DNA of 64,000 nt from a virus, in the IMG/VR virus record IMGVR_UViG_3300045988_115450, positions 43,582 to 107,581 of that record, one strand, 5' to 3'. The translations under genes were made by a program, and so were the position numbers. Under the pieces are notes generated by a model that had not been told where the DNA came from, searched no databases, and saw only the letters and a list, made by a program, of their open reading frames with translations. Positions 1 to 16,526 of the stretch are shown in pieces. Positions within the stretch are counted from its first letter, which is position 1. Each line of letters begins with the position of its first letter.

Positions 1-125
1 TTCTCAAGCCCAGCTCTTGCCAACAATTCGGCTACAGTGGAACCGGACGCACCACAACCGATGATATGTACTCTTTCTTTAACCTTCGTGGGATTAAAGA
101 ACTCAATACTCTTCGATAAATTCAT
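1..125 (-). CDS. ThiF/MoeB-type E1-like adenylyltransferase, N-terminal fragment (gene runs off window start)
   Basis: Reverse-strand ATG at 125-123 preceded by GGAGG. Translation MNLSKSIEFFNPTKVKERVHIIGCGASGSTVAELLARAGLE contains the Rossmann GxGxxG loop (GCGASG) typical of ThiF/E1 enzymes. Confidence 0.6.
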   Translation of the reverse strand, partial: MNLSKSIEFFNPTKVKERVHIIGCGASGSTVAELLARAGLE

Positions 126-137
126 CTTTATACCTCC

Positions 138-416
138 TTATAGCATTAAACAATTCAAAAATACATCACTATCGACTTTACTTTCAATCGGCTCAAACAT
201 CCAAGAAGCCCAAGCAACAAATCTTAATTTGCCTCTTTCTTCAATGCAAATACGTTCAACTTGAATGCCGTTAATCAAGGATGTCAATGAGCGCACTGTT
301 ATGATCTTACCGCAATAGCGCGTTTTATCCCCTTCAAATATCCCGTGATCATTTTTAGAAAGAATCGCCGTTCCACTACCTGTATCTACGGAAAACAGAT
401 CAGGGTCAGACATCAT
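138..416 (-). CDS. NCL(L/M)L-tail small protein paralogue 1. An in-frame TAG at 423-425 separates it from a 16-codon N-terminal piece at 426-473.
   Basis: ORF track 92 aa ending DVFLNCLML. Upstream in the same frame MKLEDMYVGQKVRVRS-TAG resembles the N-termini of paralogues 2-4. Confidence 0.5.
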   Translation of the reverse strand: MMSDPDLFSVDTGSGTAILSKNDHGIFEGDKTRYCGKIITVRSLTSLINGIQVERICIEERGKLRFVAWASWMFEPIESKVDSDVFLNCLML

Positions 417-480
417 GTCTTCCTAACTCCTCACCCTGACCTTCTGCCCAACATACATATCTTCAAGTTTCATACGTCAC

Positions 481-813
481 CTACAACAACAAACAGTTCA
501 TAAAAACCTGCTCATCAATAGATTGCTTTAACCGCAACACACTTTTATAGAAAGACATCTCTTTTTTGCTAACCCTTACCCTGTACCAACCGCCAAGTTC
601 ATACTCAACGATCTCGCCGCCGTCTCTTATAAACTCTCTGAGGCAAGGATCGCCCTCCGCGTACATCACATCGTCGGCGTATATAAATCTTTCGTTTGTG
701 ATGATGTCTACGCTCTGCGACACAGCCCCATTCGGAAATACCGCCCGTAAGTTATCATTAAATTCATCCCACGTTTTTGGAATAAACTCAACCCGCTGCC
801 CAGGTCTAAACAT
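481..813 (-). CDS. NCLLL-tail small protein paralogue 2
   Basis: 110 aa ORF with RBS GAGGTGA before the ATG. N-terminus MFRPGQRVEFIPKTWDEF, C-terminus EQVFMNCLLL, both shared with neighbours. Confidence 0.75.
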   Translation of the reverse strand: MFRPGQRVEFIPKTWDEFNDNLRAVFPNGAVSQSVDIITNERFIYADDVMYAEGDPCLREFIRDGGEIVEYELGGWYRVRVSKKEMSFYKSVLRLKQSIDEQVFMNCLLL

Positions 814-822
814 TATATCACC

Positions 823-1164
823 TCACAATAATAAGCAATTTATGAACAATTTTTCATCAATTGACCTCATGTCTTCTTTCAGACACAACACGCTTTCGTG
901 AAATTTCAGTTTTACTCCATTTATATTCACCATATACCAACCAGTAGCATAGTACTTGATAATCTCACCTCCATTTATTAGAAGCTCGTTAAACCAAGAA
1001 TCGCCTTCCCCATAAAGCACCCCTGCAACCAATATCATTTCTCTATGAGTAGTTGAGAATTCATCTAATATCATATCTCTCGCAAACAACTCCATTAAAG
1101 CATCCCGAAATTCATCCCATGACTTTGGGGCAAGCGTAACTTTCTGTCCAAGTTCAAACATCAT
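823..1164 (-). CDS. NCLLL-tail small protein paralogue 3
   Basis: 113 aa ORF. MMFELGQKVTLAPKSWDEF ... GWYMV ... EKLFINCLLL. RBS AGAGGTAA. Confidence 0.75.
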   Translation of the reverse strand: MMFELGQKVTLAPKSWDEFRDALMELFARDMILDEFSTTHREMILVAGVLYGEGDSWFNELLINGGEIIKYYATGWYMVNINGVKLKFHESVLCLKEDMRSIDEKLFINCLLL

Positions 1165-1171
1165 ATTACCT

Positions 1172-1501
1172 CTATAGCAGCAAACAATTCATAAGTACCT
1201 CTTCGTCAACATATGCTTCTTCCATCGACCGTAGCATCGTCTCATAGAACCACGCTCTTTCTCCGCCAAAGTCTACAATGTACCAACCACACTCGAAGTC
1301 TAATTCAATCACGCCACTCATCCTGCGTAACTTATAAAAATCGGGAGCGCTATATCCTGCTGCACTAGCTGCAAGATACCCAGTGGTATCACAGCTCGTA
1401 AACCTTTTTGCGCTGCGAGGAAGATGCTTTAGGTAAGCGCTGCAAAACTCATCCCAGCTCCTCAATGCTATCCTGACTCGTTGTCCGATCTCGAACATCA
1501 T
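1172..1501 (-). CDS. NCLLL-tail small protein paralogue 4
   Basis: Start moved to MMFEIGQRV (RBS AGAGGAG 6 nt upstream). Ends EEVLMNCLLL. Confidence 0.7.
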   Translation of the reverse strand: MMFEIGQRVRIALRSWDEFCSAYLKHLPRSAKRFTSCDTTGYLAASAAGYSAPDFYKLRRMSGVIELDFECGWYIVDFGGERAWFYETMLRSMEEAYVDEEVLMNCLLL

Positions 1502-1511
1502 ATCAACTCCT

Positions 1512-1856
1512 CTATAACAGCAGGCAATCCATAAGTGTCTTTTCGTCAACACTTTTTTCTTTTAATTGACACGGCGCTGTTTCGCCCGGCCCACCCACCA
1601 AACACTCATCTCTTACTTCGCCAAAGTCAACGCGCCAAATCCAATAGTCATCCGGTTCCAGATAAATTGTCGCTCCGTATTTATCTGGAGCATTAAAATT
1701 GTCACCTTCAATCATTTCGCATCCATCATCGACGCATTCTTGAAACACTGAATGAAACCTACGTTTCACGTGTTCCACCGCACTCTCCAAATTCCAATAA
1801 ACACCGGATAAATCAATACCCTGGTCTGTTTCTGTTATCACACAATATACCTTCAT
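1512..1856 (-). CDS. NCLLL-tail small protein paralogue 5 (divergent N-terminus)
   Basis: Start at MKVYCV with RBS AAAGGAGAAG (an alternative upstream ATG lies at 1961). Ends EKTLMDCLLL. YWIWRVDFGE aligns with GWYIVDFGGE of paralogue 4. Confidence 0.6.
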   Translation of the reverse strand: MKVYCVITETDQGIDLSGVYWNLESAVEHVKRRFHSVFQECVDDGCEMIEGDNFNAPDKYGATIYLEPDDYWIWRVDFGEVRDECLVGGPGETAPCQLKEKSVDEKTLMDCLLL

Positions 1857-2030
1857 ACCGGTCTTCTCCTTTCTTATGTACCTCTGAACAGCTAACCAGC
1901 TGTTTAAGTTCAAAAGTTTTCTGCTCTGGGAGTAGGAAAACTTTTGAAGCGACACAGCCATTTGTTACTCCCTCGTTCCGACAAGAGTGATATGTAATTT
2001 AACATATCTGTACAGGCACATATGTTTTTT

Positions 2031-2717
2031 TTACTTAATTAACATCTTACCGTCACGCCAATCGGGCCGCTCATCAATAATTTTATCTGCGTCCTCCATG
2101 AATTCTTCAAGCTCAACCGCGGCGTTCATAATCCACTCGATGCCATCCTGTACATCACGCACGTCCACCTTCTCAAACCGGTCAATGTTATCGAAAAACC
2201 ATCTGCACAAATCATATACAGCGGGGTTCCATCGTTCCACTGCGAGTTCCACATTGTCGCTTTCGTATAGGATGCCTTCTCTAACATCATAAACCTGTGA
2301 AGATATGTAGCCTTTCTTATTGAAAATCTGAAAGACGTAGAAATCATCAACGTCTGTCAGCAAATCTGCTCTATACTTTATATCCGTAGAAGATGGACTG
2401 ACACCCATGTTCACATGAGAATGCCCGTACAACCGAACCTTATTGAATATCTCCGTGTTAAGAGAATCCTGCCAGTTCACATAGTCCGCATCTTCAGGTT
2501 CGGTGCTTGCCGACGTGACCTTCTGAGGGAATACCAAGACGTCCTCCACGATAAACTCAGCTGGATTTTCCAACCTTCTTACAACTCCGTGCCATCCAAC
2601 CTCCAGATTCCTATTCATAACAAGCAAACACGTCTTCATCCATGCCTTCTTACTGTATACGATTTTGCACGGATTTGTCGCGGCCAACAAATCCGTTGCA
2701 TTAGTTGCCTTATTCAT
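2031..2717 (-). CDS. JAB/MPN (JAMM) metallopeptidase-domain protein
   Basis: 228 aa. Contains EVGWHG ... HSHVNMGVSPSSTD, which fits E-x(n)-HxH-x7-S-xx-D. RBS AAGGAGAA. The start overlaps the upstream stop. Confidence 0.8.
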   Translation of the reverse strand: MNKATNATDLLAATNPCKIVYSKKAWMKTCLLVMNRNLEVGWHGVVRRLENPAEFIVEDVLVFPQKVTSASTEPEDADYVNWQDSLNTEIFNKVRLYGHSHVNMGVSPSSTDIKYRADLLTDVDDFYVFQIFNKKGYISSQVYDVREGILYESDNVELAVERWNPAVYDLCRWFFDNIDRFEKVDVRDVQDGIEWIMNAAVELEEFMEDADKIIDERPDWRDGKMLIK

Positions 2718-4125
2718 TGCTCTTATTCTCCTTTATCCATTTAATTGCGTCGATGTAATTAACTACTCGCCCATCCGGCAACTCCAATACTACAGCGCCT
2801 TTTCTCAACAACTCTTCAAGGAATGATCTCAATACGACAGTATCACTAAGATTCAGATTCCCGCTTTCGGCGCACGTCGTGTCTACCGTATAAACGTAGT
2901 CACATTTGTCGCAAGATTTCTCTAGCGCCTGTTGCCAGCTCCCCATGCAACCATATTTATCAAGGTGTGTGTTGGGGAGATAGCTGTTGTATTCACAGCC
3001 ATACCCATATGCCTTGATGGGTAGTACCATTCCTCCGAAAGAAAGTCTCCATGCGGAACACATTCTTACTTTGATATTAGAGTCAATGAAAATCCCTGTC
3101 ATTAACTTTTTAGTATCACTTTCTGTCAGGCCCACATACGAAGACCGCGTATAAAAAATCGACGACCGATTGTTGATGTACTCTCTCGCAATCTCTGGAT
3201 CAAACAGTGTCATATAACCAGTTACAACATATACGATATTCCCATCTTTGTCACCGCTCTCAACGGACACATTTTTGTTCGACAAAAAATAATCCATTAA
3301 CTCGTTCTTGCTTTCAACATTACTGTTGTCAATTGCTTCCACCAACAAAGACCAACCTTCGTATTCTCTATACCAATCTCTCAAATCGGACATCAATTTA
3401 TTGATCTGACTTCTTGCACTCTCCATCTTCTTTGCGTATCTTTCCCTCTGTACGTTCCTTAGCTTTCCCTCATAGCCATAAAGGTAATATCTCTTTTTAG
3501 CTGAGGCCACGTCCACAGCAGCGGCAACCATATCGTTCATCGCTTTACAGATTACACTCATGCCGGAGTCTTCTTTAGACAGAATCTTAATAAACTTTGA
3601 CTCCGCTTCAGTCCTGTCTTTAATGTACCATGGGCAGAATACATTGAAAAGACACACTAGGTAATGCCACGAGCCATAGTTATCCACGTTGGTAAGGACA
3701 ACCGTACTCTTCCTCTCTTCATTACTGAAAATTCTCAGTATGATACCGAGTCGTTCTTTCATTAGATTCAGCTCTCTTGCCGTCTTCTCTTTCCAACTGC
3801 TCGCACATTTCATATTACTGACTAAAGTTTCTACGGCCTTAACCTTATCACACACGCAAAATGTAATCGTGTTGTCTTGAGAAGTTACCTCCGAAAAACG
3901 CTCTTTGTCTTTTATCCACGTAATCCAATCAGCACAATTAGGATCTACCACTCTAACCATGATACGCACGTCCGCCGGAACTCTTGGCTTCAAAAACAAC
4001 CGAGCCATTGCCAACGCAAAGTCATCGCCTTTGAACGTCCCGTCACCAGCAATATTAGAAAACTCAGACTCCAGCTCTGGGGCCAGCACTAAAACTTCAC
4101 TGCGTTTCAAACAATTTGAAAACAT
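2710..4125 (-). CDS. Large cassette protein, function unknown (C-terminal Cys-rich region with an LPNTHLDKYGC motif)
   Basis: Long ORF. Start set at MFSNCLKR with RBS AAAGGAGAAG. Translationally coupled to the JAB gene. Confidence 0.7.
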   Translation of the reverse strand: MFSNCLKRSEVLVLAPELESEFSNIAGDGTFKGDDFALAMARLFLKPRVPADVRIMVRVVDPNCADWITWIKDKERFSEVTSQDNTITFCVCDKVKAVETLVSNMKCASSWKEKTARELNLMKERLGIILRIFSNEERKSTVVLTNVDNYGSWHYLVCLFNVFCPWYIKDRTEAESKFIKILSKEDSGMSVICKAMNDMVAAAVDVASAKKRYYLYGYEGKLRNVQRERYAKKMESARSQINKLMSDLRDWYREYEGWSLLVEAIDNSNVESKNELMDYFLSNKNVSVESGDKDGNIVYVVTGYMTLFDPEIAREYINNRSSIFYTRSSYVGLTESDTKKLMTGIFIDSNIKVRMCSAWRLSFGGMVLPIKAYGYGCEYNSYLPNTHLDKYGCMGSWQQALEKSCDKCDYVYTVDTTCAESGNLNLSDTVVLRSFLEELLRKGAVVLELPDGRVVNYIDAIKWIKENKSNE

Positions 4126-4207
4126 ATATCTTCTCCTTTCTTTATGAACTCTTGGCAGGCCATCCGACGTAACCGAATGCCCTCCCAGCAACTCACTGTG
4201 TTATGTA

Positions 4208-4232
4208 CGAGGCCGGACAATGTCCGGCCTCG
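4208..4232 (-). promoter_or_regulatory. Strong intercistronic hairpin (11 bp stem, no U tract)
   Basis: CGAGGCCGGAC-aat-GTCCGGCCTCG, lying between the stop of the 79 aa gene and the start of the 471 aa gene. Confidence 0.5.
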
Positions 4233-4251
4233 TAGATTGTGCTAACTCAAA

Positions 4252-4491
4252 TCAGATCGCGTTACCTTGCGCCTTAACAATAGCACTCAGAGTACAAATA
4301 CCAGCGGCACCAAGTTCGGCAAAAGTGCAATCCATATCATCAGGCGTCAGAATCGTGCCGGAAAGAGAATTGACGCTACGGCTGCACTCAATTCCGATCT
4401 TCTCGAACAGAGAACGAGGGGTCTCTACATGTTCATCTACGGCCTGGCTATCAAAACGGCGGGTGGTACTTCTAACATTCACAATAATCAT
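4252..4491 (-). CDS. Small ubiquitin-like (beta-grasp-like) protein candidate
   Basis: 79 aa. The alternating hydrophobic pattern MIIVNVRS...SLFEKIGIE...LSGTIL...FAELGAAGICTLSAIVKAQG-NAI is compatible with a ThiS/MoaD/Ub fold. There is a Gly at residue 76 followed by 3 residues. The gene sits in the cassette with JAB and ThiF. Confidence 0.45.
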   Translation of the reverse strand: MIIVNVRSTTRRFDSQAVDEHVETPRSLFEKIGIECSRSVNSLSGTILTPDDMDCTFAELGAAGICTLSAIVKAQGNAI

Positions 4492-4532
4492 AATATACTT
4501 CCTTTCTGTTATTACATCTATGCTTATTTGTT

Positions 4533-4922
4533 TTAGCCAGCTACTACGATCTTGGAACTGACCCGTGCCATCATAACGTCGATCTCTTCCAGCGCTTCGC
4601 GCACCTGGGCTTCAATCTTTTCTACCTTCTCGATAACAGAAGCATATCTCTCGGCAACAACCTCACGTACGGAACGGTCAGCTTCGGTAATAAGACTCAC
4701 AGTTACGACCGCACGACCAGAGCCATCACAAGACTCAGCCTCATAGATAATACCGGTCGGTGCTACTACGCCTCTCTCGCCAGCGAGAGTGTAAAACAGT
4801 GCGTTGCCATCTTCGTCCAGCAGTTGCACAGACTTAGGCCGGTACAGAGCTGCGCGATTGATTTCTTCAAGAGTGAAAGCACTCTTGAGTGTTACTGCGT
4901 TACCACACACAATAATTTCCAT
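4533..4922 (-). CDS. Cassette protein, unknown function (ends ...VVAG)
   Basis: 129 aa ORF with RBS AAAGGAGAAG. Confidence 0.7.
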   Translation of the reverse strand: MEIIVCGNAVTLKSAFTLEEINRAALYRPKSVQLLDEDGNALFYTLAGERGVVAPTGIIYEAESCDGSGRAVVTVSLITEADRSVREVVAERYASVIEKVEKIEAQVREALEEIDVMMARVSSKIVVAG

Positions 4923-5363
4923 ATTCTTCTCCTTTTCATATGTCTAATTATGTATTATAAAGTGATTCTATATATGGAATGATAGACCTAACCCGTGCGT
5001 TAGTACGCTGACGGGCTTGGTTATCTGAGGTACTGTGTGATCGACGTCGCTCCAACTCCGCATCGCTTTGGCGTTTGATGCCTTACGCTGTAACGGTGGT
5101 AGGCAAGTTGTGCGGCTTTCTTTATATGCTTCGCTTAGTAATCTTAGCCTTCTTGTCGCATCCATGACGCCGAGAGGTTTCTGGTCGAGAGCCATCGAGG
5201 TTGGTGCAACCTTTGCGATGCTTCCCACACCTTCGGACGATATGTTACTCTCCCATTCTGGCAAGAGCCTCTGTGAATTTCAGAGTTTGCAATCACTTTA
5301 TAAATACATTTCTAATACGGTTAAAAAAATCAGATAAAAGAATTATTTGGACTAAATGCTCAC

Positions 5364-6218
5364 TTAGTTTTCCTGCTGTCCACTCCAAACAACCAGACAA
5401 TCAGGATTGGGGACACCTCTGGTTTCCTTACCATCTAGCCATCTAGCCAGTACATAAGAGGTCGTCAAGAACACACGGTGGCGGTAATGCTTGCACCGGC
5501 CATCAATAGCAGAATCCTTAATCCAATCTCTCAAGCGGACAATCTGCCTATCCAAACTAGACTCAGCATAACCAGTCTGAAGAACATTCCAGAAATATTC
5601 GAGCCTAACATCGCTCGCCCCGGCTTCTTTCGCCAGATACATGGCAGCTGTGATCGGAGCCGTGCCAAGCTTTCTCTGTCTCACCTTCAAGAAACTATTA
5701 ACCCAGGAGAATTCAGCGATGTGCTTCGAAATCATGTCCGCTCTCTTAGCTTCATTCTCCAAGTGCCTCGCACTAAATTCATTCAGCACCATGCAGATTG
5801 CAACCGAGCGCTTGTAAGAAGAAATCTTTCCTCTGTTTCCGCCCTCGGCCATACACAAAGCGTCGGCTTCACTTCTCGCCCTACCCCGGTCAATGTACGG
5901 ACTGCGTTCCATATTGAACAGGAAGAACATCTTTACTGTCTTACCGCAGCGCTTCACCGCTTCGAGCCGGTGATGCCCGTCAATAAGAACACCAGCCTTA
6001 TCAAACATAATAAAGCCGGTCGGAGTATTTTCATCCCATGTGCCATTCATCATATGGGACTTGTACTTATTCACAGTGCTCTTACTGATCGGACGATTGC
6101 CGCCGGACATAGCCAACAAACCCGTCGCCATTTCCGGAGACACGTAAGCATACGCCAACTGTCCACCGTTCCGTTCTTCTAGCAACAAGTTGCTCAACAA
6201 TTCTTCATAAGCTGTCAT
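5364..6218 (-). CDS. ParB/Srx N-terminal domain-like protein
   Basis: Start moved to MTAYEELL (RBS AGGAGG) because the ORF-track start overlaps a tRNA. Motifs NRPISKSTVNKYKSHMMNGTW and IDGHHRLEA match the ParB-like nuclease/CTPase fold. Confidence 0.7.
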   Translation of the reverse strand: MTAYEELLSNLLLEERNGGQLAYAYVSPEMATGLLAMSGGNRPISKSTVNKYKSHMMNGTWDENTPTGFIMFDKAGVLIDGHHRLEAVKRCGKTVKMFFLFNMERSPYIDRGRARSEADALCMAEGGNRGKISSYKRSVAICMVLNEFSARHLENEAKRADMISKHIAEFSWVNSFLKVRQRKLGTAPITAAMYLAKEAGASDVRLEYFWNVLQTGYAESSLDRQIVRLRDWIKDSAIDGRCKHYRHRVFLTTSYVLARWLDGKETRGVPNPDCLVVWSGQQEN

Positions 6219-6244
6219 TTGTATGTACCTCCTAAAAATTTTGC

Positions 6245-6321
6245 TGGTGGTTCCTGCCCGGCTCGAACGGGCGACCATCCAGTTATGAGCTGGACGCGCT
6301 AACCAACTGCGCTAAGGAACC
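6245..6321 (-). tRNA. tRNA-Met or Ile2 (anticodon CAU), CCA encoded
   Basis: Manual cloverleaf GGTTCCT/AGGAACC acceptor, loop CTCATAA, T arm GCCCG-TTCGAGC-CGGGC. Confidence 0.85.
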
Positions 6322-6397
6322 AGGTACGTTTAAAGCCGCTGAATTTATCAGCGGCTTTAAACTGTTAATGAAAGCAAGTGTCCGTATAAAACGAACG

Positions 6398-6472
6398 TGG
6401 CAGCGCCGGACTGAGATCGAACAGTCTTCCACGGAGTCAAAGTCCGTTGCATTACCGTTATGCTACGGCGCT
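6398..6472 (-). tRNA. tRNA-Gln (UUG), CCA encoded
   Basis: Acceptor AGCGCCG/CGGCGCT, anticodon arm ACGGA-CTTTGAC-TCCGT. The T loop is slightly irregular. Confidence 0.7.
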
Positions 6473-6583
6473 ATATAAATCAAGCAGAGCAGAGCAGAGT
6501 TTAAAGCCATTCCAGGCTATGTAAAGAAAGGAGGTGGTTTATCAACAATAACAGGTAGGAGAATCATTTTCTGTTGCTTGATA

Positions 6584-6658
6584 TGGGGTAGGCGACGAGT
6601 GCCGATCTCGCGTTTCCGGTTTGGAAGACCGGTGTTCTAGCCGTTGAACTACGCCTAC
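6584..6658 (-). tRNA. tRNA-Gly (UCC), CCA encoded
   Basis: Acceptor GTAGGCG/CGCCTAC, anticodon arm CCGGT-CTTCCAA-ACCGG. Confidence 0.75.
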
Positions 6659-6688
6659 ATTTTTGCGGTTCCGCAAACCGCATTTTTT

Positions 6689-7318
6689 TTAATTCATATA
6701 TAAATCATAATAACTTTGTTTTCTTCTTGGTTTCAAATCTGGATTTTTTAAACGCCTTTTGATGAACTCAACTGTATTATCCAGCCCATAGTTCCTGACG
6801 TATGTATTGATCCTGTTTGCTCCCAAACCTAAAGTTTTAGCCCAGTCCTTCCCAGTATGTATCGTTCCGTCAACATCAATAAGCGAAGTTGTAGACTTGT
6901 ATTTCGAATTATCTGCCAATGTTACCCATCTGCAATTATCAGGAGAATAATCCCCGTCCCAATCAATTCTATCAATAGTCAAACCATCATCGTACCCGTT
7001 AGTTAATGACCAACTCTCAAATAATTCTGGATTGCGCATCCAATCATCACAAACCTTAACACCCTTAGCGCCATACCATCTGTAGCTCTTATTACTCTTA
7101 TCATAGCACCTAGCTTTCATATCGCTAAAAATTCTCCGGAGCTTGTCGTCACTCCATGAAGCATCATAATTTATATAACCCCCGCTTCTTCCGATATGTC
7201 TACAAGCTTTCGCCTGCTCAATATGCCTTTTCTGTTTGTTCGTTTCAAACCCACACTCAGCACATCTCACATGGTATAATCTATGCCCGTCCCTATGCCT
7301 GAAATCACACTCATACAA
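6689..7318 (-). CDS. HNH/homing-endonuclease-like protein inserted in the tRNA array
   Basis: 209 aa. N-terminal CxxC..CRH zinc-like motif. YRWYGAKGVKVCDDW ... LTIDRIDWDGDYSPDNCRWVTLADN resembles the IDRIDNxGxYxxxNCRW signature of phage HNH-type proteins (from memory). Confidence 0.55.
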   Translation of the reverse strand: MYECDFRHRDGHRLYHVRCAECGFETNKQKRHIEQAKACRHIGRSGGYINYDASWSDDKLRRIFSDMKARCYDKSNKSYRWYGAKGVKVCDDWMRNPELFESWSLTNGYDDGLTIDRIDWDGDYSPDNCRWVTLADNSKYKSTTSLIDVDGTIHTGKDWAKTLGLGANRINTYVRNYGLDNTVEFIKRRLKNPDLKPRRKQSYYDLYMN

Positions 7319-7466
7319 GACATCGAAAATACCTATCCTAGTACCAACAATATTCTCTTTTTCCAGAATATCACCATCTTTCTGCGTGTTGCTAAATAAT
7401 AATCCGATGAGAGTGCTGCCCTCTCGCCTGCGTTGTTCACTGTACTACTGTTATACTAATCGGATG

Positions 7467-7547
7467 TACGGGCGACAAGATTTGAACTTGCAAGCCTTAC
7501 GGCACCGGGGCCTAAACCCGGCGTGTATACCGTTCCACCACGCCCGC
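7467..7547 (-). tRNA. tRNA-Leu (UAG), class II, no CCA
   Basis: Anticodon arm CCGGG-TTTAGGC-CCCGG, long variable arm, T arm GCAAG-TTCAAAT-CTTGT. Confidence 0.75.
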
Positions 7548-7629
7548 ATGGCACCACTAAGTCATGGTCGGCTGCGCATTTATCCTTTTTTGAATCGTGG
7601 TAGATGATTTTGCTTCGTACAACCACGCA

Positions 7630-7704
7630 TGGACTGAGTGGAGAATTTTGAAATCTCGACCTCTGGTTCCCAAAACCAGCGTTCTGCCTCTGAACTACAC
7701 CCAG
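7630..7704 (-). tRNA. tRNA-Pro (UGG), CCA encoded
   Basis: C1-G72 acceptor CTGGGTG/CACTCAG, anticodon arm CTGGT-TTTGGGA-ACCAG. Confidence 0.7.
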
Positions 7705-7707
7705 ATA

Positions 7708-7782
7708 TGGAGGCCGATGCGAGTTCGAACTCAGCGTCTGTGGGTTACAAAGCCACTGTTTTACCACTTAAACTAATCGGCC
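7708..7782 (-). tRNA. tRNA-Thr (UGU), CCA encoded
   Basis: Acceptor GGCCGAT/ATCGGCC, loop TTTGTAA, with a 31-39 mismatch. Confidence 0.7.
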
Positions 7783-7932
7783 ACGCACCCCGTTTTGCGG
7801 GGTGGCTATGTAAGGGAATCAAAAAGGGGAACTCCTGTCTCTTCCAGGATGCCAACACACTACTACGGACTGCCAGAGGCAAACCGCCACTTTTCAGGTG
7901 TCATAGTCCGCAAACTATGGGCTTTTCTTTAG

Positions 7933-8014
7933 TGCGGGATAAGAGACTTGAACTCTTACGTCTATCGACATCGAGACTTAAACACGAGGTGTCTACCGAT
8001 TCCACCAATCCCGC
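7933..8014 (-). tRNA. tRNA-Leu (UAA), class II, no CCA
   Basis: Acceptor GCGGGAT/ATCCCGC, loop TTTAAGT, long variable arm, T arm AAGAG-TTCAAGT-CTCTT. Confidence 0.8.
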
Positions 8015-8367
8015 ATATTGAACTTGCTACAACCCAGCCTGGTGGTTGACCCGTGGGCGTTGATAACTGACCCAAACCATTAACCCAGGATTTTGTAAAA
8101 CTTTAACCGTTAACCTTTGATTCTTGAACTTTAATCTTCTGAAGATCTTTGAGCCTTGAATTTTGAAATTTTAACTTTGAAGTTTGAGCTTTACAGCAAC
8201 ATTTCTTCTATAAGAAATTAGATTAACAGTCCAATCTTTTTGTAAGCGCAAAATTTCAAGTTTTGCTTTGTAGTTGGCACATATTTGTTCATTTTTACAT
8301 CGAACCAAGTGCCGTCAGCACGATGGGTTACCGTTTTAGGTTTTCGGGTTGCAGCAAGTTGCTTATT

Positions 8368-9021
8368 TTAGTATTCTACGGTGATTGTAGTGGTCGCATT
8401 GGACACAGATAGCTGAGAATCTACATCCGCAGTAAACGTGTCAATCCAATCGCTCAAAACCTTGATTTCATTACCAATGTCAAGCGGATCAACGAGTTCA
8501 TACGTATTGTTGGCAATATACTCTTCTCTCAACCGCTTAACGACCTCAGAATCCTTGGTTGTCTTGGCCTCTTTAGGCTGGCACTGGAGGAAATTCATGA
8601 TATACTGTTCAGCTTTCGCTTCAATCCACTCGCCTTCATGTTTGGAAACCTCAGCACGGGCTCTTTCGTACTGCCGGACCATTACATCAAGCAAATCTTT
8701 CTTAGCCATGATTCCATGGCTTTTCATTTCGATGGCTTCGGCTACGGTGTAAGGTTCGCCGCCAATTACCACCGGGGTTTTGGCATTGGAGAGCACAACT
8801 GCTCTCTTAATAGCCGTCCGACGAGCAATCAAGTCCGTAACAGACTGATAATCAGACTTCATATCCTTCTTGAGGGTTTCGACCAGCACACCGCCGATCT
8901 TTTTGTCGCTCACTTTCTTACTGGCAACGAAGGTTTTACCAGAAGTAGCATTGAAAATTCTAGCGTCCAAAATTTTCAGCTCTGCAAGAGCTTTATGGAC
9001 GGTCATAGTTTCTTTGTTCAT
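8368..9021 (-). CDS. Hypothetical protein embedded in the tRNA array
   Basis: 217 aa ORF with an ATG start. No motif recognised. Confidence 0.7.
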   Translation of the reverse strand: MNKETMTVHKALAELKILDARIFNATSGKTFVASKKVSDKKIGGVLVETLKKDMKSDYQSVTDLIARRTAIKRAVVLSNAKTPVVIGGEPYTVAEAIEMKSHGIMAKKDLLDVMVRQYERARAEVSKHEGEWIEAKAEQYIMNFLQCQPKEAKTTKDSEVVKRLREEYIANNTYELVDPLDIGNEIKVLSDWIDTFTADVDSQLSVSNATTTITVEY

Positions 9022-9072
9022 ATTAGTTCCTCACTTTCTTATTTATGGAATTAGATTTTTATCGTGGTATCG

Positions 9073-9163
9073 TGGTCTCCCTGGGTGAATTCGAATCACC
9101 ATATACCTTATGAGGGCCTTCCAATTATAAGTTGGAAGCTATAACCAATTTAGCTACAGGGAG
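9073..9163 (-). tRNA. Atypical 91 nt tRNA, anticodon UAU (Ile-AUA reading) with a class II-like 19 nt variable arm, CCA encoded
   Basis: Acceptor CTCCCTG/CAGGGAG, D arm GCTA..TAGC, anticodon arm (CT)TCCAA-CTTATAA-TTGGA(AG), T arm GGTGA-TTCGAAT-TCACC. Confidence 0.6.
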
Positions 9164-9443
9164 ATATTTGTTCAGCAACCACAACCGCCCTATCAATCAG
9201 TCGGCCTAACCAAAAGATAGGGCTGGATTGTGTTGCCCAACCGTGCCTGAGAGCTTTCTTGCCTAGCCTGTACTTAACCAGGTGTCTGCAATCAATGTTT
9301 AGGTTGCTGGTTTTGACCCTCGCTCTAGAACCAGTTAACTAGAGCGATTGAGAGCTACTAGACGGAATTGCACCGCCTTGAAGTCATAAGTGAGGCGCGA
9401 GAGGAGTTACGCCCACCTCTTCACCTGCTTGGAGTAGCATATG

Positions 9444-9519
9444 TGGCACCAGCACTAAGATTCGAACTTAGAACTACGGTTTTGGAGACCGCCGTTTTTC
9501 CACTTAAAACTATGCTGGT
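9444..9519 (-). tRNA. tRNA-Trp (CCA), CCA end encoded
   Basis: Acceptor ACCAGCA/TGCTGGT, loop CTCCAAA, T arm CTAAG-TTCGAAT-CTTAG. Confidence 0.85.
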
Positions 9520-10728: not shown

Positions 10729-10821
10729 TTACCTCGCTTGTGCAACCACTGCAAACACACATACCCAGAAAGGCACCGCTATAGCGGTTACAATATACAT
10801 GAGGTTTCCTCTCACTTTCAT
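10729..10821 (-). CDS. Possible 30 aa single-TM peptide
   Basis: GAGGAGGA RBS, ATGA overlap with the ardA stop. MKVRGNLMYIVTAIAVPFWVCVFAVVAQAR. Confidence 0.3.
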   Translation of the reverse strand: MKVRGNLMYIVTAIAVPFWVCVFAVVAQAR

Positions 10822-11477
10822 TCCTCCTCAAAATTCAACACTCGATATTCATCGGGGATATCCTCGACACCCTCGTAGTACTCCGTAAAGCTCGACCCAT
10901 CATGCAAGACATATCCGGCGGAAGTGAAGCACCCTTCTTCTTCAGACCGGACGTCTCGACCAAAACTTTCATAGTCGATATACCTGGCCAGCGTGCCGAG
11001 CTTGTCCGTGTCGTAACAACCACTCTCCTCGATGTAGTAATAACCAAGGTCATAGTCGTTAGTTACATTAGAGAAGACCATGTAGTTATCCAAGTTATCT
11101 ATGAGGTTAATAAGGTCTTTCACAGAGTCGCCGTGATTCCCTACCTCAATAGCCGCTTCGAACAATTTAAAGTCATAATCACTCATCTCGTCCAATCTTG
11201 CCGCTAGGTAATTCAGCTCGTCCAGATTTTCGTACTCGCCGAATCCCCGACAAAGCCCAGTTACATAACAGTCATAGTCCGTAATGAACCATTCCTCATA
11301 TAGGCAACCAAAATCATCCTTCTGGCCGATCCCAATACGCTTGAACACATCCTTCATTTCTTTGGTCGTTGTGGGAAGGTGAACCCACTCACCAACCAAC
11401 ATACCCTCGTTGTACTTACCAAGATTCGTGACGTAGACAGCAAAAGGATAATCTTTGTTGTATTCAAATTTAGCCAT
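10818..11477 (-). CDS. ardA: Antirestriction protein ArdA
   Basis: YVTNLGKYNEGMLVGEWVHLP, DYDLGYYYIEESG and YIDYESFGRDV closely parallel Tn916 Orf18/ArdA as recalled. The protein is acidic. Confidence 0.85.
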   Translation of the reverse strand: MAKFEYNKDYPFAVYVTNLGKYNEGMLVGEWVHLPTTTKEMKDVFKRIGIGQKDDFGCLYEEWFITDYDCYVTGLCRGFGEYENLDELNYLAARLDEMSDYDFKLFEAAIEVGNHGDSVKDLINLIDNLDNYMVFSNVTNDYDLGYYYIEESGCYDTDKLGTLARYIDYESFGRDVRSEEEGCFTSAGYVLHDGSSFTEYYEGVEDIPDEYRVLNFEEE

Positions 11478-15157: not shown

Positions 15158-16144
15158 TTACAGATTAAACGCTTCTTTGTAAACCTTATACATCTTTATA
15201 GCGTTGTAATACCCTTTTTTCTGACGGAATACATCTTCCACCAGCGACTGATTCGTGTGATCAAAAACATCTACACCAGACTGTTCAATTCTGTACAGCT
15301 CGTGATACCGCCCAGACCGCCAAACATTTTGATACGTATGGCGGCGTGGGTAGCCTAGCGCTTGGTATTTTTTAGCCATTCTGCTGCATTGGTTGTTGAC
15401 TGCTGCTAGAGAATATTCTTTCCCAAACTCCTCTATTCCAACCAAAACCATTCGCTTTAAGAACGAGCCTACAGATGTGTCTTTTACCGCTTGGACCGTT
15501 CCAGAACCTTTCGTTCTAACAGAGTACTTACACGCACAATATCTTTTCAAAGTATCACAGACAGTATCAGAAAACCCGCTTGTGAGGATAGAACCATCTT
15601 GACCGTAGATAATCCTATCGTCTAAATCCACATCGTTATCTCTTAGGGCGATAATTTCTACATTATTCAATCCAATCCAGTTCAAGCAAAAAACAGGATA
15701 CTCTATATACCCTGCATCAATAGGAAGCACTTTTTTAATAGACTCCACTAAGTCAATATCGTCTTTGAATAGAGACTGCTCTAGCGGTTCTATTAACCGG
15801 ATGTCTTCTGGAGACACTTCGAAGATCCCGTCTGACACATTTACAAAAACCTTGTTTTTCTTGCACCATTTTGAATACTGTCTTAACATGCTAATAGCAC
15901 TTTTTACGGTCGCAGATTCTGCTATTCCCATAGCATGAACAGCTGCGACGCAATGGCCTTGATCCATCTGCGCAATATCTAACCTGCATTCTTCTTCATA
16001 ACTAGCTATTTTGTTAAAAACCCACGTGATAGAAGATTTCTTAGTATACCCCATCTCCTTGCAAAATCCCATTTTAACATCCTCGTTATACAAGATACCA
16101 CCACCTTTTAGGCAATGATACCATGTATAATCAAAATCCGTCAA
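15158..16144 (-). CDS. Hypothetical protein (possibly a degenerate recombinase-like fold)
   Basis: 328 aa ORF. No intact catalytic motif seen. Confidence 0.6.
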   Translation of the reverse strand: MTDFDYTWYHCLKGGGILYNEDVKMGFCKEMGYTKKSSITWVFNKIASYEEECRLDIAQMDQGHCVAAVHAMGIAESATVKSAISMLRQYSKWCKKNKVFVNVSDGIFEVSPEDIRLIEPLEQSLFKDDIDLVESIKKVLPIDAGYIEYPVFCLNWIGLNNVEIIALRDNDVDLDDRIIYGQDGSILTSGFSDTVCDTLKRYCACKYSVRTKGSGTVQAVKDTSVGSFLKRMVLVGIEEFGKEYSLAAVNNQCSRMAKKYQALGYPRRHTYQNVWRSGRYHELYRIEQSGVDVFDHTNQSLVEDVFRQKKGYYNAIKMYKVYKEAFNL

Positions 16145-16357: not shown

Positions 16358-16526
16358 ACAGCGTCCTACCTTTCCGCTACCCTAGCAAGCTGCTGCTAGG
16401 GTAGCTTTTTTTTGCAGGCATAGACAGAATCCACCTATGTTATCCCTGCGACCTCGCAGGCCAGGGCGATCCCAGCCTACGAACGCTCCCGGCCTAACGC
16501 CTGTTTATAGTCGCCGGGACGACTCT

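What the first reader, a model, noticed from the sequence alone, without database searches (positions are those of the whole stretch)
1..6218. Phage-borne ThiF(E1) - JAB - ubiquitin-like - ParB-like cassette (PRTRC-type), a possible ubiquitin-like conjugation system
One leftward operon carries the following, in order:
- A ParB/Srx-fold protein (IDGHHRLEA).
- A 129 aa protein.
- A 79 aa protein whose pattern fits a beta-grasp fold. It has Gly76 followed by a 3-residue tail (AQG-NAI), which would need trimming.
- A 471 aa protein whose C-terminus has an LPNTHLDKYGC motif, faintly reminiscent of the E2 HPN..C loop.
- A JAMM-motif JAB peptidase (HSHVNMGVSPSSTD).
- Five small paralogues.
- A ThiF-like E1 with GCGASG, truncated by the window edge.

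Gene content, and as far as I recall gene sizes and order, resemble the TIGRFAM PRTRC (ParB-related, ThiF-related cassette). No function is established for that cassette. Bacterial Ubl-conjugation systems have been described as anti-phage defences. Here the machinery sits in the early region of the phage itself, next to ArdA, which suggests a counter-defence or host-takeover role.
Basis: partly seen in the sequence, partly recalled or inferred. Interest (0 to 1): 0.85.

Follow-up and report, generated by a model that had tools for sequence, protein, structure and literature searches.

The report
Phage ubiquitin-like conjugation operon with retron
A gut phage carries its own ubiquitin-like protein, an activating enzyme (E1) and a trimming/removal protease (JAB), next to a retron-type reverse transcriptase. 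Such machinery was so far described in bacteria as an anti-phage defence, and this set is common in uncultured phages but unannotated.

Summary
Three calls hold.
- The 79-aa protein models as a ubiquitin fold (pLDDT 87; the 50 best PDB matches listed are all ubiquitin, NEDD8, SUMO or ISG15).
- The 228-aa protein has an invariant JAMM motif.
- The truncated ORF is a 222-aa ThiF-type E1, shown by a near-identical contig.

The PRTRC label fails. No PRTRC model matches five of the proteins, and the E1 scores 34 bits against a cut-off of 145. The ParB-like gene and the five small paralogues occur only in the window's close relatives.

The module conserved across 26 loci is: 129-aa protein, Ubl, 471-aa protein, JAB, E1, then a retron-type reverse transcriptase.

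The 471-aa protein sits where Bil systems have their E2. It has an invariant Cys in a Y-x-P-N-x7-C motif with E2 spacing, but no fold or profile search supports E2 homology.

The Ubl family ends in K-A-D-N-A, not Gly-Gly. The window's Gly76 is not conserved.

I also found a ~350-nt retron-like ncRNA unit at 4955-5303(-), just upstream of the operon.

Best reading: a phage-borne, Bil-like Ubl conjugation system whose target is unknown. It is a new variant of a known kind.

The parts
3..125 (-). N-terminal 41 codons of the ThiF-type E1 (GCGASG nucleotide-binding loop). The rest lies beyond the window's left edge.
   Evidence: Translation. It is 100% identical to residues 1-41 of the 222-aa E1 at L001:11558-12226. 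That protein matches Pfam ThiF at 87.5 bits and PDB E1s: Uba1 at E 1e-18, then UBA5, MoeB, MccB, ThiF and Cap2. Invariant in 17 homologues: G23/G25/G28, D47, D109, R114 and C176.
138..416 (-). Small paralogue sp92, ending ...VDSDVFLNCLML.
   Evidence: Found only in the window's clade (L001, L005, L007). L001 has a longer N-terminus.
481..813 (-). Small paralogue sp110, ending ...IDEQVFMNCLLL.
   Evidence: It is 41.6% identical to sp113 and 32% to sp126.
823..1164 (-). Small paralogue sp113, ending ...IDEKLFINCLLL.
1172..1552 (-). Small paralogue sp126, ending ...VDEEVLMNCLLL. It is called as 109 aa from the ATG in the identical contig L002.
1512..1961 (-). Small paralogue sp149, ending ...VDEKTLMDCLLL. 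It is called as 114 aa in L002.
   Evidence: No Pfam, NCBIfam or PHROG hit.
2031..2717 (-). JAB/JAMM metalloprotease, 228 aa. Its start overlaps the stop of the 471-aa gene by 8 nt.
   Evidence: E39, H99-S-H101, S109 and D112 are invariant in 20 homologues at ~30% identity. A profile search of the PDB hits only RPN11, aligned on the JAMM motif (E 0.0026). 7 of 20 members match Pfam Prok-JAB weakly.
2710..4125 (-). 471-aa orphan protein in the 'E2 position', with invariant Cys393 in a Y382-x-P384-N385-x-H387-x5-C393-x-G395 motif. Candidate thioester carrier or ligase.
   Evidence: 2239 representatives at 50% identity. D34, H154, W166, H387 and C393 are invariant. AF2 gives pLDDT 84 and pTM 0.49. 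No PDB fold match, no PDB sequence match and no Pfam match in 75 members. hhalign aligns only the 13-residue YxPN..C stretch to E2s, at Prob 0.1-0.2%.
4252..4491 (-). Ubiquitin-like protein, 79 aa, with a flexible tail K73-A-Q-G-N-A-I79.
   Evidence: AF2 on 124 sequences gives pLDDT 86.8 and pTM 0.74, with order b1 b2 a1 b3 b4 b5 and residues 76-79 disordered. The top 50 Foldseek PDB hits are ubiquitin, NEDD8, SUMO or ISG15, TM 0.60-0.72 with three lower (0.54-0.57), probability 1.0. The family has at least 1783 clusters with consensus end VVKADNA.
4533..4922 (-). 129-aa conserved first gene of the operon, function unknown. It has no invariant catalytic-type residues. Candidate adaptor or substrate.
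   Evidence: Present in nearly all divergent loci, directly upstream of the Ubl gene. No family or PDB match.
4955..5303 (-). Structured ~350-nt retron-ncRNA-like unit upstream of the operon. It comprises a 13-nt perfect terminal inverted repeat (5291-5303 with 4955-4967), a G at 5290 directly after the 5' arm, and a conserved two-hairpin module at 5222-5286.
   Evidence: Covariance model R1, built from the units upstream of the RT in other loci, hits 5222-5286(-) at 32 bits, E 2e-5. Inverted repeat. The fold has a closing stem, MFE -106.4, z -4.26. The same architecture with different arm sequences recurs in 29 units.
5364..6218 (-). ParB-like neighbour (IDGHHRLEA). It is adjacent to the conserved module but not part of it.
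   Evidence: phrog_5931 at E 9e-33, and only a weak match to the ParB-like phrog_1033 (E 0.0014). No Pfam, NCBIfam or PDB hit. Present only in close relatives L001, L002 and L005-L007.

Best explanation
The window carries a phage-encoded ubiquitin-like (Ubl) protein-conjugation operon. It works like the bacterial Bil, CBASS-Cap2/Cap3 and Bub systems but is not a sequence member of any of them.

Proposed steps:
1. (Inferred) The JAB metalloprotease trims the one or two residues that follow the conserved Ubl tail. In the window this is KAQGN|AI or KAQGNA|I; most relatives already end ...KADNA.
2. (Inferred from family chemistry) The 222-aa ThiF-type E1 adenylates the exposed C-terminal carboxylate. 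That residue is small, Ala or Asn, not Gly.
3. (Inferred) The Ubl is passed to a cysteine. The candidates are the invariant E1 Cys176 and the invariant Cys393 of the 471-aa protein. That protein occupies the position of the E2 in Bil operons (order Ubl, E2, DUB, E1) and carries a Y-x-P-N-x7-C loop with E2 spacing.
4. (Inferred) The Ubl is transferred to a target, and JAB can reverse the modification.

The 129-aa protein is a conserved partner, either adaptor or substrate. The operon is transcribed leftward as one unit from a structured leader at 4955-5303.

Across its phage lineage the operon is followed by a retron-type reverse transcriptase with its own copy of that RNA unit.

Shown: the folds and motifs of the Ubl, JAB and E1; the conserved synteny; the phage context. 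Inferred: every chemical step, the E2 role of the 471-aa protein, and the biological target. The target could be host takeover, counter-defence or competition between phages.
For: - Ubl fold.
- Conserved flexible C-terminal tail with variable 1-2 residue overhangs. BilA homologues show similar overhangs after their conserved end (10.1101/2023.09.04.556158).
- A C-terminal Ala is accepted by a bacterial E1 in CBASS (PMC10097602).
- JAMM residues are invariant and the only PDB profile hits are RPN11.
- E1: ThiF domain, ATP-binding and Mg residues and Cys176 invariant, best PDB matches Uba1 and UBA5.
- 471-aa protein: Cys393, His387 and Asn385 essentially invariant in 170 sequences at ~25% identity. 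The order of secondary-structure elements around them is helix, 2 strands, helical insert, 2 strands, loop with YxPN..C, then 3-4 helices.
- Gene order matches BilABCD.
- Synteny holds in 26 loci.
- The 471-aa and JAB genes overlap by 8 nt.
- Phage identity.
Against: - No significant fold or profile similarity of the 471-aa protein to any E2.
- The Ubl lacks the C-terminal Gly that Bil, ubiquitin, ThiS and MoaD require.
- The E1 is a minimal 222-aa ThiF-like enzyme, of the size used by sulfur-carrier pathways. Its invariant Cys has not been mapped onto a known catalytic Cys.
- No target is known.
- No defence-system model (PADLOC) matches anything except the E1 Rossmann part, plus a marginal JAB hit.
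- There is no experimental evidence at all.
Confidence: 0.6

Rival explanations
1. Sulfur-carrier pathway. The Ubl acts like ThiS, MoaD or TtuB. The E1 adenylates it, it is converted to a thiocarboxylate, and the sulfur is used to modify a nucleic acid or cofactor, for example the phage's many tRNAs. JAB exposes the C-terminus, as in CysO/Mec+ type clusters.
For: - The E1 is a minimal 222-aa ThiF-type enzyme, and its best NCBIfam hit is ThiS adenylyltransferase ThiF (73.8 bits).
- ThiS/MoaD + JAB + E1 clusters for sulfur transfer are known (PMC1779556).
- The phage carries at least 9 tRNA genes.
- Three divergent loci have a tRNA gene between the Ubl and 471-aa genes.
Against: - There is no C-terminal Gly-Gly.
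- The model matches ubiquitin, NEDD8 and SUMO; no ThiS or MoaD appears among the 50 best hits listed.
- No rhodanese, cysteine desulfurase, PP-loop or radical-SAM partner was seen in the conserved module.
- The 471-aa protein has no recognised sulfurtransferase domain.
Confidence: 0.12
2. Retron accessory module. The Ubl/E1/JAB/471-aa set is the effector or regulated arm of a phage-borne retron. The retron comprises the RT plus 2-3 msr-msd-like ncRNA units, and the two parts work as one system.
For: - A retron-type RT (NCBIfam retron St85 family 163 bits, PADLOC RT_II-A 139 bits) lies 0.4-1.6 kb downstream of the E1 in 18 of 20 loci with enough sequence.
- Each RT is preceded by a ~300-nt unit with terminal inverted repeats that covary between loci, a G directly after the 5' arm, and conserved 5' hairpins.
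- In the window's clade a second unit sits directly upstream of the Ubl operon.
Against: - All loci come from one phage lineage, so the synteny may reflect descent rather than coupling.
- L010 and L020 keep the Ubl genes without an RT nearby.
- The RNA units also precede unrelated genes downstream of the RT, so they may be a general leader or processing element.
- The RT scores below the retron family cut-off (163 against 235).
- No msDNA has been demonstrated.
- No known retron type has ThiF, JAB or Ubl partners (PMC7736814).
Confidence: 0.2
3. PRTRC-type cassette. On this view the region is a phage copy of the ParB-related, ThiF-related cassette found on proteobacterial ICEs and plasmids.
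For: Superficial content match: a ParB-like gene, a ThiF-like gene, a JAB-like gene and a small protein in one operon. TIGR03736 gives a weak hit to the E1 (34.2 bits).
Against: - No PRTRC model hits the other five proteins at E<=1.
- The E1 is far below the PRTRC_ThiF cut-off (144.75) and scores higher to generic ThiF.
- The ParB-like gene is absent from all divergent relatives and is weakly ParB-like at best.
- The hosts are gut Clostridia phages, not proteobacterial mobile elements (PMC3318190).
Confidence: 0.04
4. Non-conjugating chemistry by the E1, as with MccB or PaaA. The E1 would modify the Ubl's C-terminal Asn or Ala itself, for example by forming a peptidyl-nucleotide or by cyclisation. 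Alternatively it would attach the Ubl to a non-protein acceptor such as nucleic acid or lipid.
For: - MccB and PaaA are among the E1 profile's PDB hits (E 5e-13 and 6e-11).
- The C-terminus is Asn or Ala rather than Gly.
- A neighbouring RT and ncRNA offer a possible nucleic-acid acceptor.
Against: - Uba1 and UBA5 score higher than MccB.
- The substrate is a folded 75-79-aa ubiquitin-fold protein, not a short peptide.
- The JAB protease and a Cys-bearing partner fit conjugation and deconjugation better.
Confidence: 0.04

Closest known systems
Bil (bacterial ISG15-like) anti-phage system, BilABCD
   Same: A four-part logic of Ubl, a protein in the E2 position, a JAB deubiquitinase and an E1, in the same gene order. 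Some Ubl homologues carry short overhangs after the conserved C-terminal residue (10.1101/2023.09.04.556158).
   Different: - It is encoded by a phage, not a bacterium.
- The Ubl is a single beta-grasp domain that ends in Ala or Asn rather than an invariant Gly.
- The E1 is a minimal 222-aa ThiF-type protein.
- The protein in the E2 position is a 471-aa orphan with no detectable E2 homology.
- There is an extra conserved 129-aa gene, and a linked retron-type RT.
- No HMM-level similarity beyond the E1 Rossmann region.
Type II CBASS Cap2 (E1-E2) / Cap3 (JAB)
   Same: A bacterial E1 activates a C-terminus that may be Ala rather than Gly, and a JAB enzyme reverses the modification (PMC10097602). 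The E1 region matches PADLOC 'E1-E2' (Cap2) models at up to 60 bits and PDB Cap2.
   Different: The moiety conjugated here is a true ubiquitin-fold protein, not a CD-NTase. There is no E2-E1 fusion, no cyclase and no effector.
Bub (bacterial ubiquitination-like) operons
   Same: Diverged Ubl, E1 and E2 sets with non-canonical catalytic residues and a dedicated peptidase that matures the Ubl (PMC11601596).
   Different: Bub uses oxyester intermediates and a Ser-His protease. Here a Cys is invariant in both the E1 and the 471-aa protein, and the protease is a JAMM metalloenzyme.
PRTRC (ParB-related, ThiF-related cassette) of ICEs and plasmids
   Same: It also combines ThiF-like, JAB-like and small proteins with a ParB-like protein on a mobile element.
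   Different: HMMs do not match. The ParB-like gene here is not a conserved component. The host range and type of element differ.
Retrons (msr-msd ncRNA + RT + effector)
   Same: An RT of retron type. The upstream ~300-nt RNA has terminal inverted repeats, a G right after the 5' arm, and 5' hairpins (description of msr-msd in PMC7736814).
   Different: - There are 2-3 RNA units per phage, some not adjacent to the RT.
- The RT scores below the family cut-off.
- The neighbouring genes are a Ubl/E1/JAB set, which is not a known retron partner.
- msDNA has not been shown.
Lambda/T1 tail-assembly TAPI (Ubl) with TAPK (JAB + NlpC/P60)
   Same: A phage-encoded Ubl domain paired with a JAB peptidase (PMC1779556).
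   Different: Those genes sit in the tail module, have no E1, and the Ubl is a domain of a larger protein. Here the set lies in the early or accessory region and includes an E1.

Membership tests
PRTRC system (TIGR03734-TIGR03742) | The ThiF component reaches the PRTRC_ThiF (TIGR03736) cut-off. | tested here: not met
   34.2 bits against a cut-off of 144.75, lower than the score to generic ThiF models.
PRTRC system (TIGR03734-TIGR03742) | The other cassette proteins (ParB-like and proteins A-F) match their NCBIfam/TIGRFAM models. | tested here: not met
   No PRTRC family at E<=1 for the ParB-like, 129-aa, 79-aa, 471-aa or JAB proteins, nor for the small ORFs.
PRTRC system (TIGR03734-TIGR03742) | The ParB-related gene is a constant member of the cassette. 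| tested here: not met
   The ParB-like gene is present only in L001, L002 and L005-L007. It is absent from every locus outside the window's own clade that carries the module.
Ubiquitin-like modifier (beta-grasp Ubl used for conjugation) | Beta-grasp fold. | tested here: met
   AF2 pLDDT 86.8 with element order b-b-a-b-b-b. Foldseek TM 0.60-0.72 (three hits 0.54-0.57) to ubiquitin, NEDD8, SUMO and ISG15.
Ubiquitin-like modifier (beta-grasp Ubl used for conjugation) | Exposed flexible C-terminal tail that ends in a conserved Gly or Gly-Gly. | tested here: not met
   The tail is flexible and conserved but ends K-A-D-N-A (window: K-A-Q-G-N-A-I). Gly76 is not conserved. Ala is tolerated in CBASS.
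Ubiquitin-like modifier (beta-grasp Ubl used for conjugation) | Covalent attachment to targets through the C-terminus. | not testable with these tools
   Needs biochemistry or mass spectrometry.
E1 / ThiF-MoeB adenylyltransferase superfamily | ThiF Rossmann domain with the GxGxxG loop and the Mg/ATP-binding Asp and Arg. | tested here: met
   Pfam PF00899 at 87.5 bits over residues 17-218. G23/G25/G28, D47, D109 and R114 invariant. PDB E1 hits down to E 1e-18. Only residues 1-41 lie inside the window.
E1 / ThiF-MoeB adenylyltransferase superfamily | Catalytic cysteine that forms a thioester with the Ubl. | tested here: inconclusive
   Cys176 is invariant in a P-x-S-A-C motif. Its equivalence to a known catalytic Cys was not established, because the PDB alignments cover only residues 10-119.
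JAB/JAMM (MPN+) metalloprotease | The E ... HxH-x7-S-xx-D zinc site. | tested here: met
   E39, H99, H101, S109 and D112 are invariant in 20 homologues. The motif aligns with the RPN11 JAMM motif. There are weak Prok-JAB hits in 7 of 20 members.
E2 / UBC-fold conjugating enzyme (471-aa protein, C-terminal domain) | HPN-x(7-8)-Cys active-site loop. | tested here: inconclusive
   Y382-x-P384-N385-x7-C393 has E2 spacing, and N385 and C393 are 99-100% conserved. The His of HPN is absent. hhalign aligns only this 13-residue stretch, at Prob 0.1-0.2%.
E2 / UBC-fold conjugating enzyme (471-aa protein, C-terminal domain) | UBC fold detectable by structure or profile comparison. | tested here: not met
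   Foldseek against the PDB finds no hit at E<=1e-3 and no E2 in the top 50. PDB profile searches are empty apart from coiled-coil noise. No UQ_con or Prok-E2 Pfam hit in 75 members. The domain was not searched on its own.
Bil system | Operon of a Ubl, an E2, a JAB DUB and an E1 that confers defence by conjugating the Ubl to phage tail protein. | tested here: inconclusive
   The gene order is analogous. There is no sequence-family match, the C-terminal Gly is absent, the system is phage-encoded, and function was not testable.
Retron | RT of the retron clade. | tested here: inconclusive
   The best matches are retron models (St85 family 163 bits, RT_II-A 139 bits), but the score is below the NCBIfam cut-off of 235. 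The RT lies outside the window.
Retron | An msr-msd ncRNA with terminal inverted repeats (a1/a2) and a priming G, located upstream of the RT. | tested here: met
   Inverted repeats of 8-16 nt at homologous positions with different sequences in each locus: mean 9.3 nt against 5.9 in shuffles. A G follows the 5' arm in about 19 of 29 units. The structured fold has z -3.6 to -4.3. No Rfam family matches.
Retron | Production of msDNA. | not testable with these tools
   Needs an experiment.

The most novel reading that the evidence does not exclude
The Ubl, E1, JAB and 471-aa proteins and the retron-type RT with its 2-3 msr-msd-like RNA units form one phage-encoded system. Reverse-transcribed DNA would sense or gate Ubl conjugation, or would itself (or the RT) be the thing modified. 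That would be a new retron class with a ubiquitin-like effector arm, carried by thousands of gut phages for counter-defence or for warfare between phages.
Probability: 0.2. Interest if true: 0.92.

Novelty: new variant of a known kind. Interest (0 to 1): 0.78.

Why it matters
Bacterial Ubl-conjugation systems (Bil, CBASS Cap2/3, Bub) are known as host defences against phages. In this case a complete Ubl/E1/JAB set belongs to the phage.

The module is not rare. The Ubl family has at least 1783 clusters at 90% identity, and the 471-aa partner has 2239 representatives at 50% identity. They come almost entirely from uncultured gut phages of Clostridia. None carries any annotation.

Working out what the phage conjugates, and to what, would open the viral side of prokaryotic ubiquitin-like signalling.

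The non-Gly C-terminus and the orphan Cys-bearing partner suggest new enzymology.

The conserved retron-type RT with multiple structured RNA units points to an unexplored link between reverse transcription and protein conjugation.

Tried and rejected
- NCBIfam, Pfam, PHROGs and PADLOC scans of all window proteins found nothing except phrog_5931 and a weak ParB match for the ParB-like protein, plus a marginal PADLOC JAB hit.
- Megablast of the region and of 20 kb of the window against INPHARED found no match.
- tblastn of the JAB and the 471-aa protein against phage records found a single unannotated faecal contig, MT835544.
- tblastn of the E1 against plasmids, done to fetch a PRTRC example, returned only generic ThiF hits, so I abandoned that route.
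- The 471-aa model gave nothing in Foldseek against the PDB. Against BFVD it matched only one uncharacterised homologue.
- PDB profile searches for the 79-aa, 471-aa and 129-aa families and a single-sequence search for the ParB-like protein gave no real hits.
- I first took the skipping-rope RNA found after the E1 in L001 and L005 for the RT's ncRNA. I rejected that because it is absent from divergent loci.
- I considered reading the repeated 65-nt element as a plain terminator plus promoter. I judged this less likely once the covarying long-range inverted repeats were found, but it is not excluded.

Full report
**1. What is in the sequence**

The minus strand of window 1-6300 carries these genes, in transcription order:
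- a ParB-like ORF at 5364-6218, with IDGHHRLEA;
- a 129-aa ORF at 4533-4922;
- a 79-aa ORF at 4252-4491;
- a 471-aa ORF at 2710-4125, with LPNTHLDKYGC;
- a 228-aa ORF at 2031-2717, with HSHVNMGVSPSSTD, overlapping the previous stop by 8 nt;
- five small ORFs between 138 and 1961;
- the first 41 codons of a GCGASG protein at 3-125.

The long form of the ParB-like ORF (to 6278) runs into tRNA-Met 6245-6321, so the start at 6218 is preferred.

The window is a long-tailed phage. It encodes TerL, a portal, a 2497-aa tape measure protein, ArdA at 10818-11477, an HNH endonuclease and nine tRNAs.

**2. The missing E1**

Look-up of the exact JAB protein found contig L001 (Logan ERR12109038). Its proteins are 98-100% identical to the window's, apart from a different set of small paralogues and an 89.8%-identical ArdA, and the contig continues beyond the window edge.

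- The truncated ORF is a 222-aa protein, identical over the 41 residues seen in the window.
- It matches Pfam ThiF at 87.5 bits.
- As a 17-sequence profile it matches PDB E1s led by Uba1 (E 1e-18) and UBA5, then TcdA, MoeB, MccB, ThiF, NAE, Cap2 and SAE2.
- The nucleotide-binding glycines, D47, D109, R114 and a Cys in P-x-S-A-C (C176) are invariant.

It is an E1.

**3. The 79-aa protein**

A direct search found only seven close homologues. A profile built with divergent copies taken from related loci found 1783 clusters, mostly of 75 aa.

AlphaFold2 on 124 sequences gave pLDDT 86.8 and pTM 0.74. The element order is b1(2-8), b2(14-18), a1(25-32), b3(39-43), b4(46-48), b5(65-72), with a disordered tail.

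Foldseek against the PDB returned ubiquitin, NEDD8, SUMO and ISG15 for all 50 listed top hits. TM was 0.60-0.72 for all but three (0.54-0.57), probability 1.0, over the full length. The protein is a ubiquitin-fold protein.

Its C-terminus is unusual. The family consensus is ...VVKADNA. Of 123 listed homologues, 89 end exactly there, and about a quarter (28) carry one or two extra residues: A, AA, TC, K, HI, and AI/AM/AF/MF in the window's clade.

The window's Gly76 is therefore not the conserved end. The mature terminus is most likely N77 or A78. A conserved tail with variable overhangs is what a processed modifier looks like. BilA homologues show similar overhangs, and a bacterial E1 can use a C-terminal Ala.

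**4. The JAB**

No library HMM reaches significance for the window protein. In 20 homologues at about 30% identity, E39, H99, S100, H101, S109 and D112 are invariant. These form the JAMM E...HxH-x7-S-xx-D site.

The family profile hits only RPN11 in the PDB, aligned on that motif (E 0.0026). 7 of 20 members weakly match Pfam Prok-JAB.

**5. The 471-aa protein**

- The family is large: 2239 representatives at 50% identity, all of 460-540 aa. It has no annotated domain.
- The model (pLDDT 84, pTM 0.49) has an N-terminal alpha/beta domain, a ~50-residue helix and a C-terminal domain.
- In 170 sequences at ~25% identity to the window protein, D34, W166, H387 and C393 are invariant, and H154, N385 and G395 are conserved in 99%.
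- The motif Y382-x-P-N-x7-C393 has the same spacing as the E2 YHPN-x7-C loop. hhalign aligns exactly that stretch to UBE2D2, UBE2N and UBE2I, but at probability 0.1-0.2%.
- Foldseek (PDB) found no hit at E<=1e-3 and no E2 among the 50 best listed. PDB profile searches and Pfam scans of 75 members find no E2.

The protein occupies the slot between the Ubl and the JAB that BilB (E2) occupies in BilABCD. I treat it as a candidate thioester carrier or ligase, not as a demonstrated E2.

**6. What is conserved and what is not**

Twenty-six loci were collected from Logan, ENA, IMG/VR and GTDB MAGs. The MAGs are of Ruminococcus, Oscillospiraceae, Lachnospiraceae and other gut Clostridia. The viral contigs are 48-114 kb, five of the eight being 104-114 kb.

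Twenty-five share the order 129 aa, Ubl, ~480 aa, JAB, E1 wherever the contig reaches; the fragment L018 holds the ~480-aa gene alone. Outside the window's own clade their E1 is 44-79% identical to the nearer of the two query E1s.

The ParB-like gene, ArdA and the small paralogues appear only in the window's own clade: L001, L002 and L005-L007. The small paralogues number 2-5 per phage. They have different N-terminal parts but share the C-terminal tail VDExxFMNCL[LM]L, which I cannot explain.

**7. PRTRC**

NCBIfam release 20 contains the PRTRC models, since TIGR03736 is reported. None hits the ParB-like, 129-aa, 79-aa, 471-aa or JAB proteins at E<=1.

The E1 scores 34.2 bits against a cut-off of 144.75, below its scores to generic ThiF and to a Cap2-like model.

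The ParB-like gene is also dispensable, and PRTRC is a feature of proteobacterial ICEs and plasmids. On that evidence the PRTRC filing is rejected.

**8. Beyond the window: the RT and an RNA unit that is also inside the window**

Downstream of the E1 lies a 370-457-aa reverse transcriptase. It is present in 18 of 20 loci with at least 1.1 kb of downstream sequence, and absent in L010 and L020. Its best matches are retron RTs, but below the curated cut-off of 235: NCBIfam St85 family 163 bits and PADLOC RT_II-A 139 bits.

The gap between the E1 and the RT holds a conserved hairpin in which 6 of 9 pairs have compensatory changes.

A covariance model of this ~65-nt module finds it, always on the gene strand, in three places:
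- upstream of the RT in nearly all loci;
- again downstream of the RT in many loci;
- once in the window at 5222-5286(-), between the ParB-like gene and the 129-aa gene.

Most copies are bracketed by a perfect inverted repeat of 8-16 nt, spaced 240-345 nt apart. The repeats sit at homologous positions but differ in sequence between loci. In the window the arms are 5291-5303 and 4955-4967: 13 nt, 323 nt apart.

Over 29 units the longest such repeat averages 9.3 nt against 5.9 in shuffles. The 5' arm is directly followed by G, usually GCA.

The window unit folds with this closing stem and two 5' hairpins (MFE -106.4, z -4.26). The unit upstream of the RT in L001 folds likewise (z -3.57).

This is the architecture described for retron msr-msd RNAs: terminal repeats that pair, 1-3 msr hairpins, and a priming G (PMC7736814). 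No Rfam family matches it.

The units also precede unrelated genes, so a general leader or RNA-processing role is not excluded.

The published retron classification lists no ThiF, JAB or ubiquitin partner. My literature searches found no description of a phage-borne Ubl/E1/JAB operon or of a retron-Ubl link.

**9. Mechanism and verdict**

The best-supported reading is a phage-encoded Ubl conjugation pathway. It works like Bil, Cap2/Cap3 or Bub but is not a sequence member of those families.

The proposed steps are JAB maturation of the Ubl tail, adenylation by the E1, transfer through cysteine(s) including Cys393 of the 471-aa protein, and reversible attachment to an unknown target.

- Shown: the three folds and motifs, the conserved operon, the phage context.
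- Inferred: all of the chemistry, the E2 role and the biological purpose.

The main rivals are a sulfur-carrier pathway and a combined retron-Ubl system.

It is a new variant of a known kind. It is widespread, unannotated and experimentally tractable.

Noticed in passing
window 16447-16524 (-): A Pistol self-cleaving ribozyme match (RF02679, 63.9 bits against a gathering score of 34.5) in the phage's leftward gene block.
   Followed up: no
L001:12233-12313 and L005:11215-11295 (just beyond the window's left edge): A skipping-rope RNA (RF02924, 50.3 bits against a gathering score of 36.7) begins 7 nt after the E1 stop codon, upstream of the retron-like RNA unit and the RT. It is absent from divergent loci. 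Its function is unknown in the literature (PMC5737381).
   Followed up: partly
window 138-1961 (-): The five small ORFs (2-5 per related phage) have dissimilar N-terminal parts but an almost invariant C-terminal tail, VDExxFMNCL[LM]L-COOH. They sit between the JAB and the E1, only in this clade. The CLLL end looks like a CaaX box. Its meaning is unknown.
   Followed up: partly
L008:6284-6367, L014:7822-7903, L017:2022-2103: In three divergent relatives a tRNA gene sits between the Ubl gene and the 471-aa gene, inside the operon. The window has a 126-nt gap there with no tRNA.
   Followed up: no
window 6245-9519 (-): An array of nine tRNA genes (Met, Gln, Gly, Leu x2, Pro, Thr, Ile-tat, Trp) on the same strand as the operon. 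It is interrupted by an HNH endonuclease gene (6689-7318) and a gene matching phrog_1491, annotated 'tail fiber protein' (8368-9021).
   Followed up: no
L003 6164-6472 and 7099-; L008 11067-11349; L012 11632-; L014 13163-13461; L017 7794-; L023 11933-12191: Further copies of the retron-like RNA unit lie downstream of the RT, each with its own covarying terminal inverted repeat. That gives 2-3 units per phage for a single RT.
   Followed up: partly
L014:334-404 and L014:5372-5524: RAGATH-16 (70.7 bits, above its gathering score) and RAGATH-36 (67.6 bits, just below 70) RNA motifs lie upstream of the module in a 359-kb Eubacteriales MAG contig.
   Followed up: no
window 15158-16144 (-): A 328-aa ORF with a weak integrase match (phrog_5830, E 1.5e-8). 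It hints that the phage may be temperate. One relative lies on a 359-kb MAG contig.
   Followed up: no
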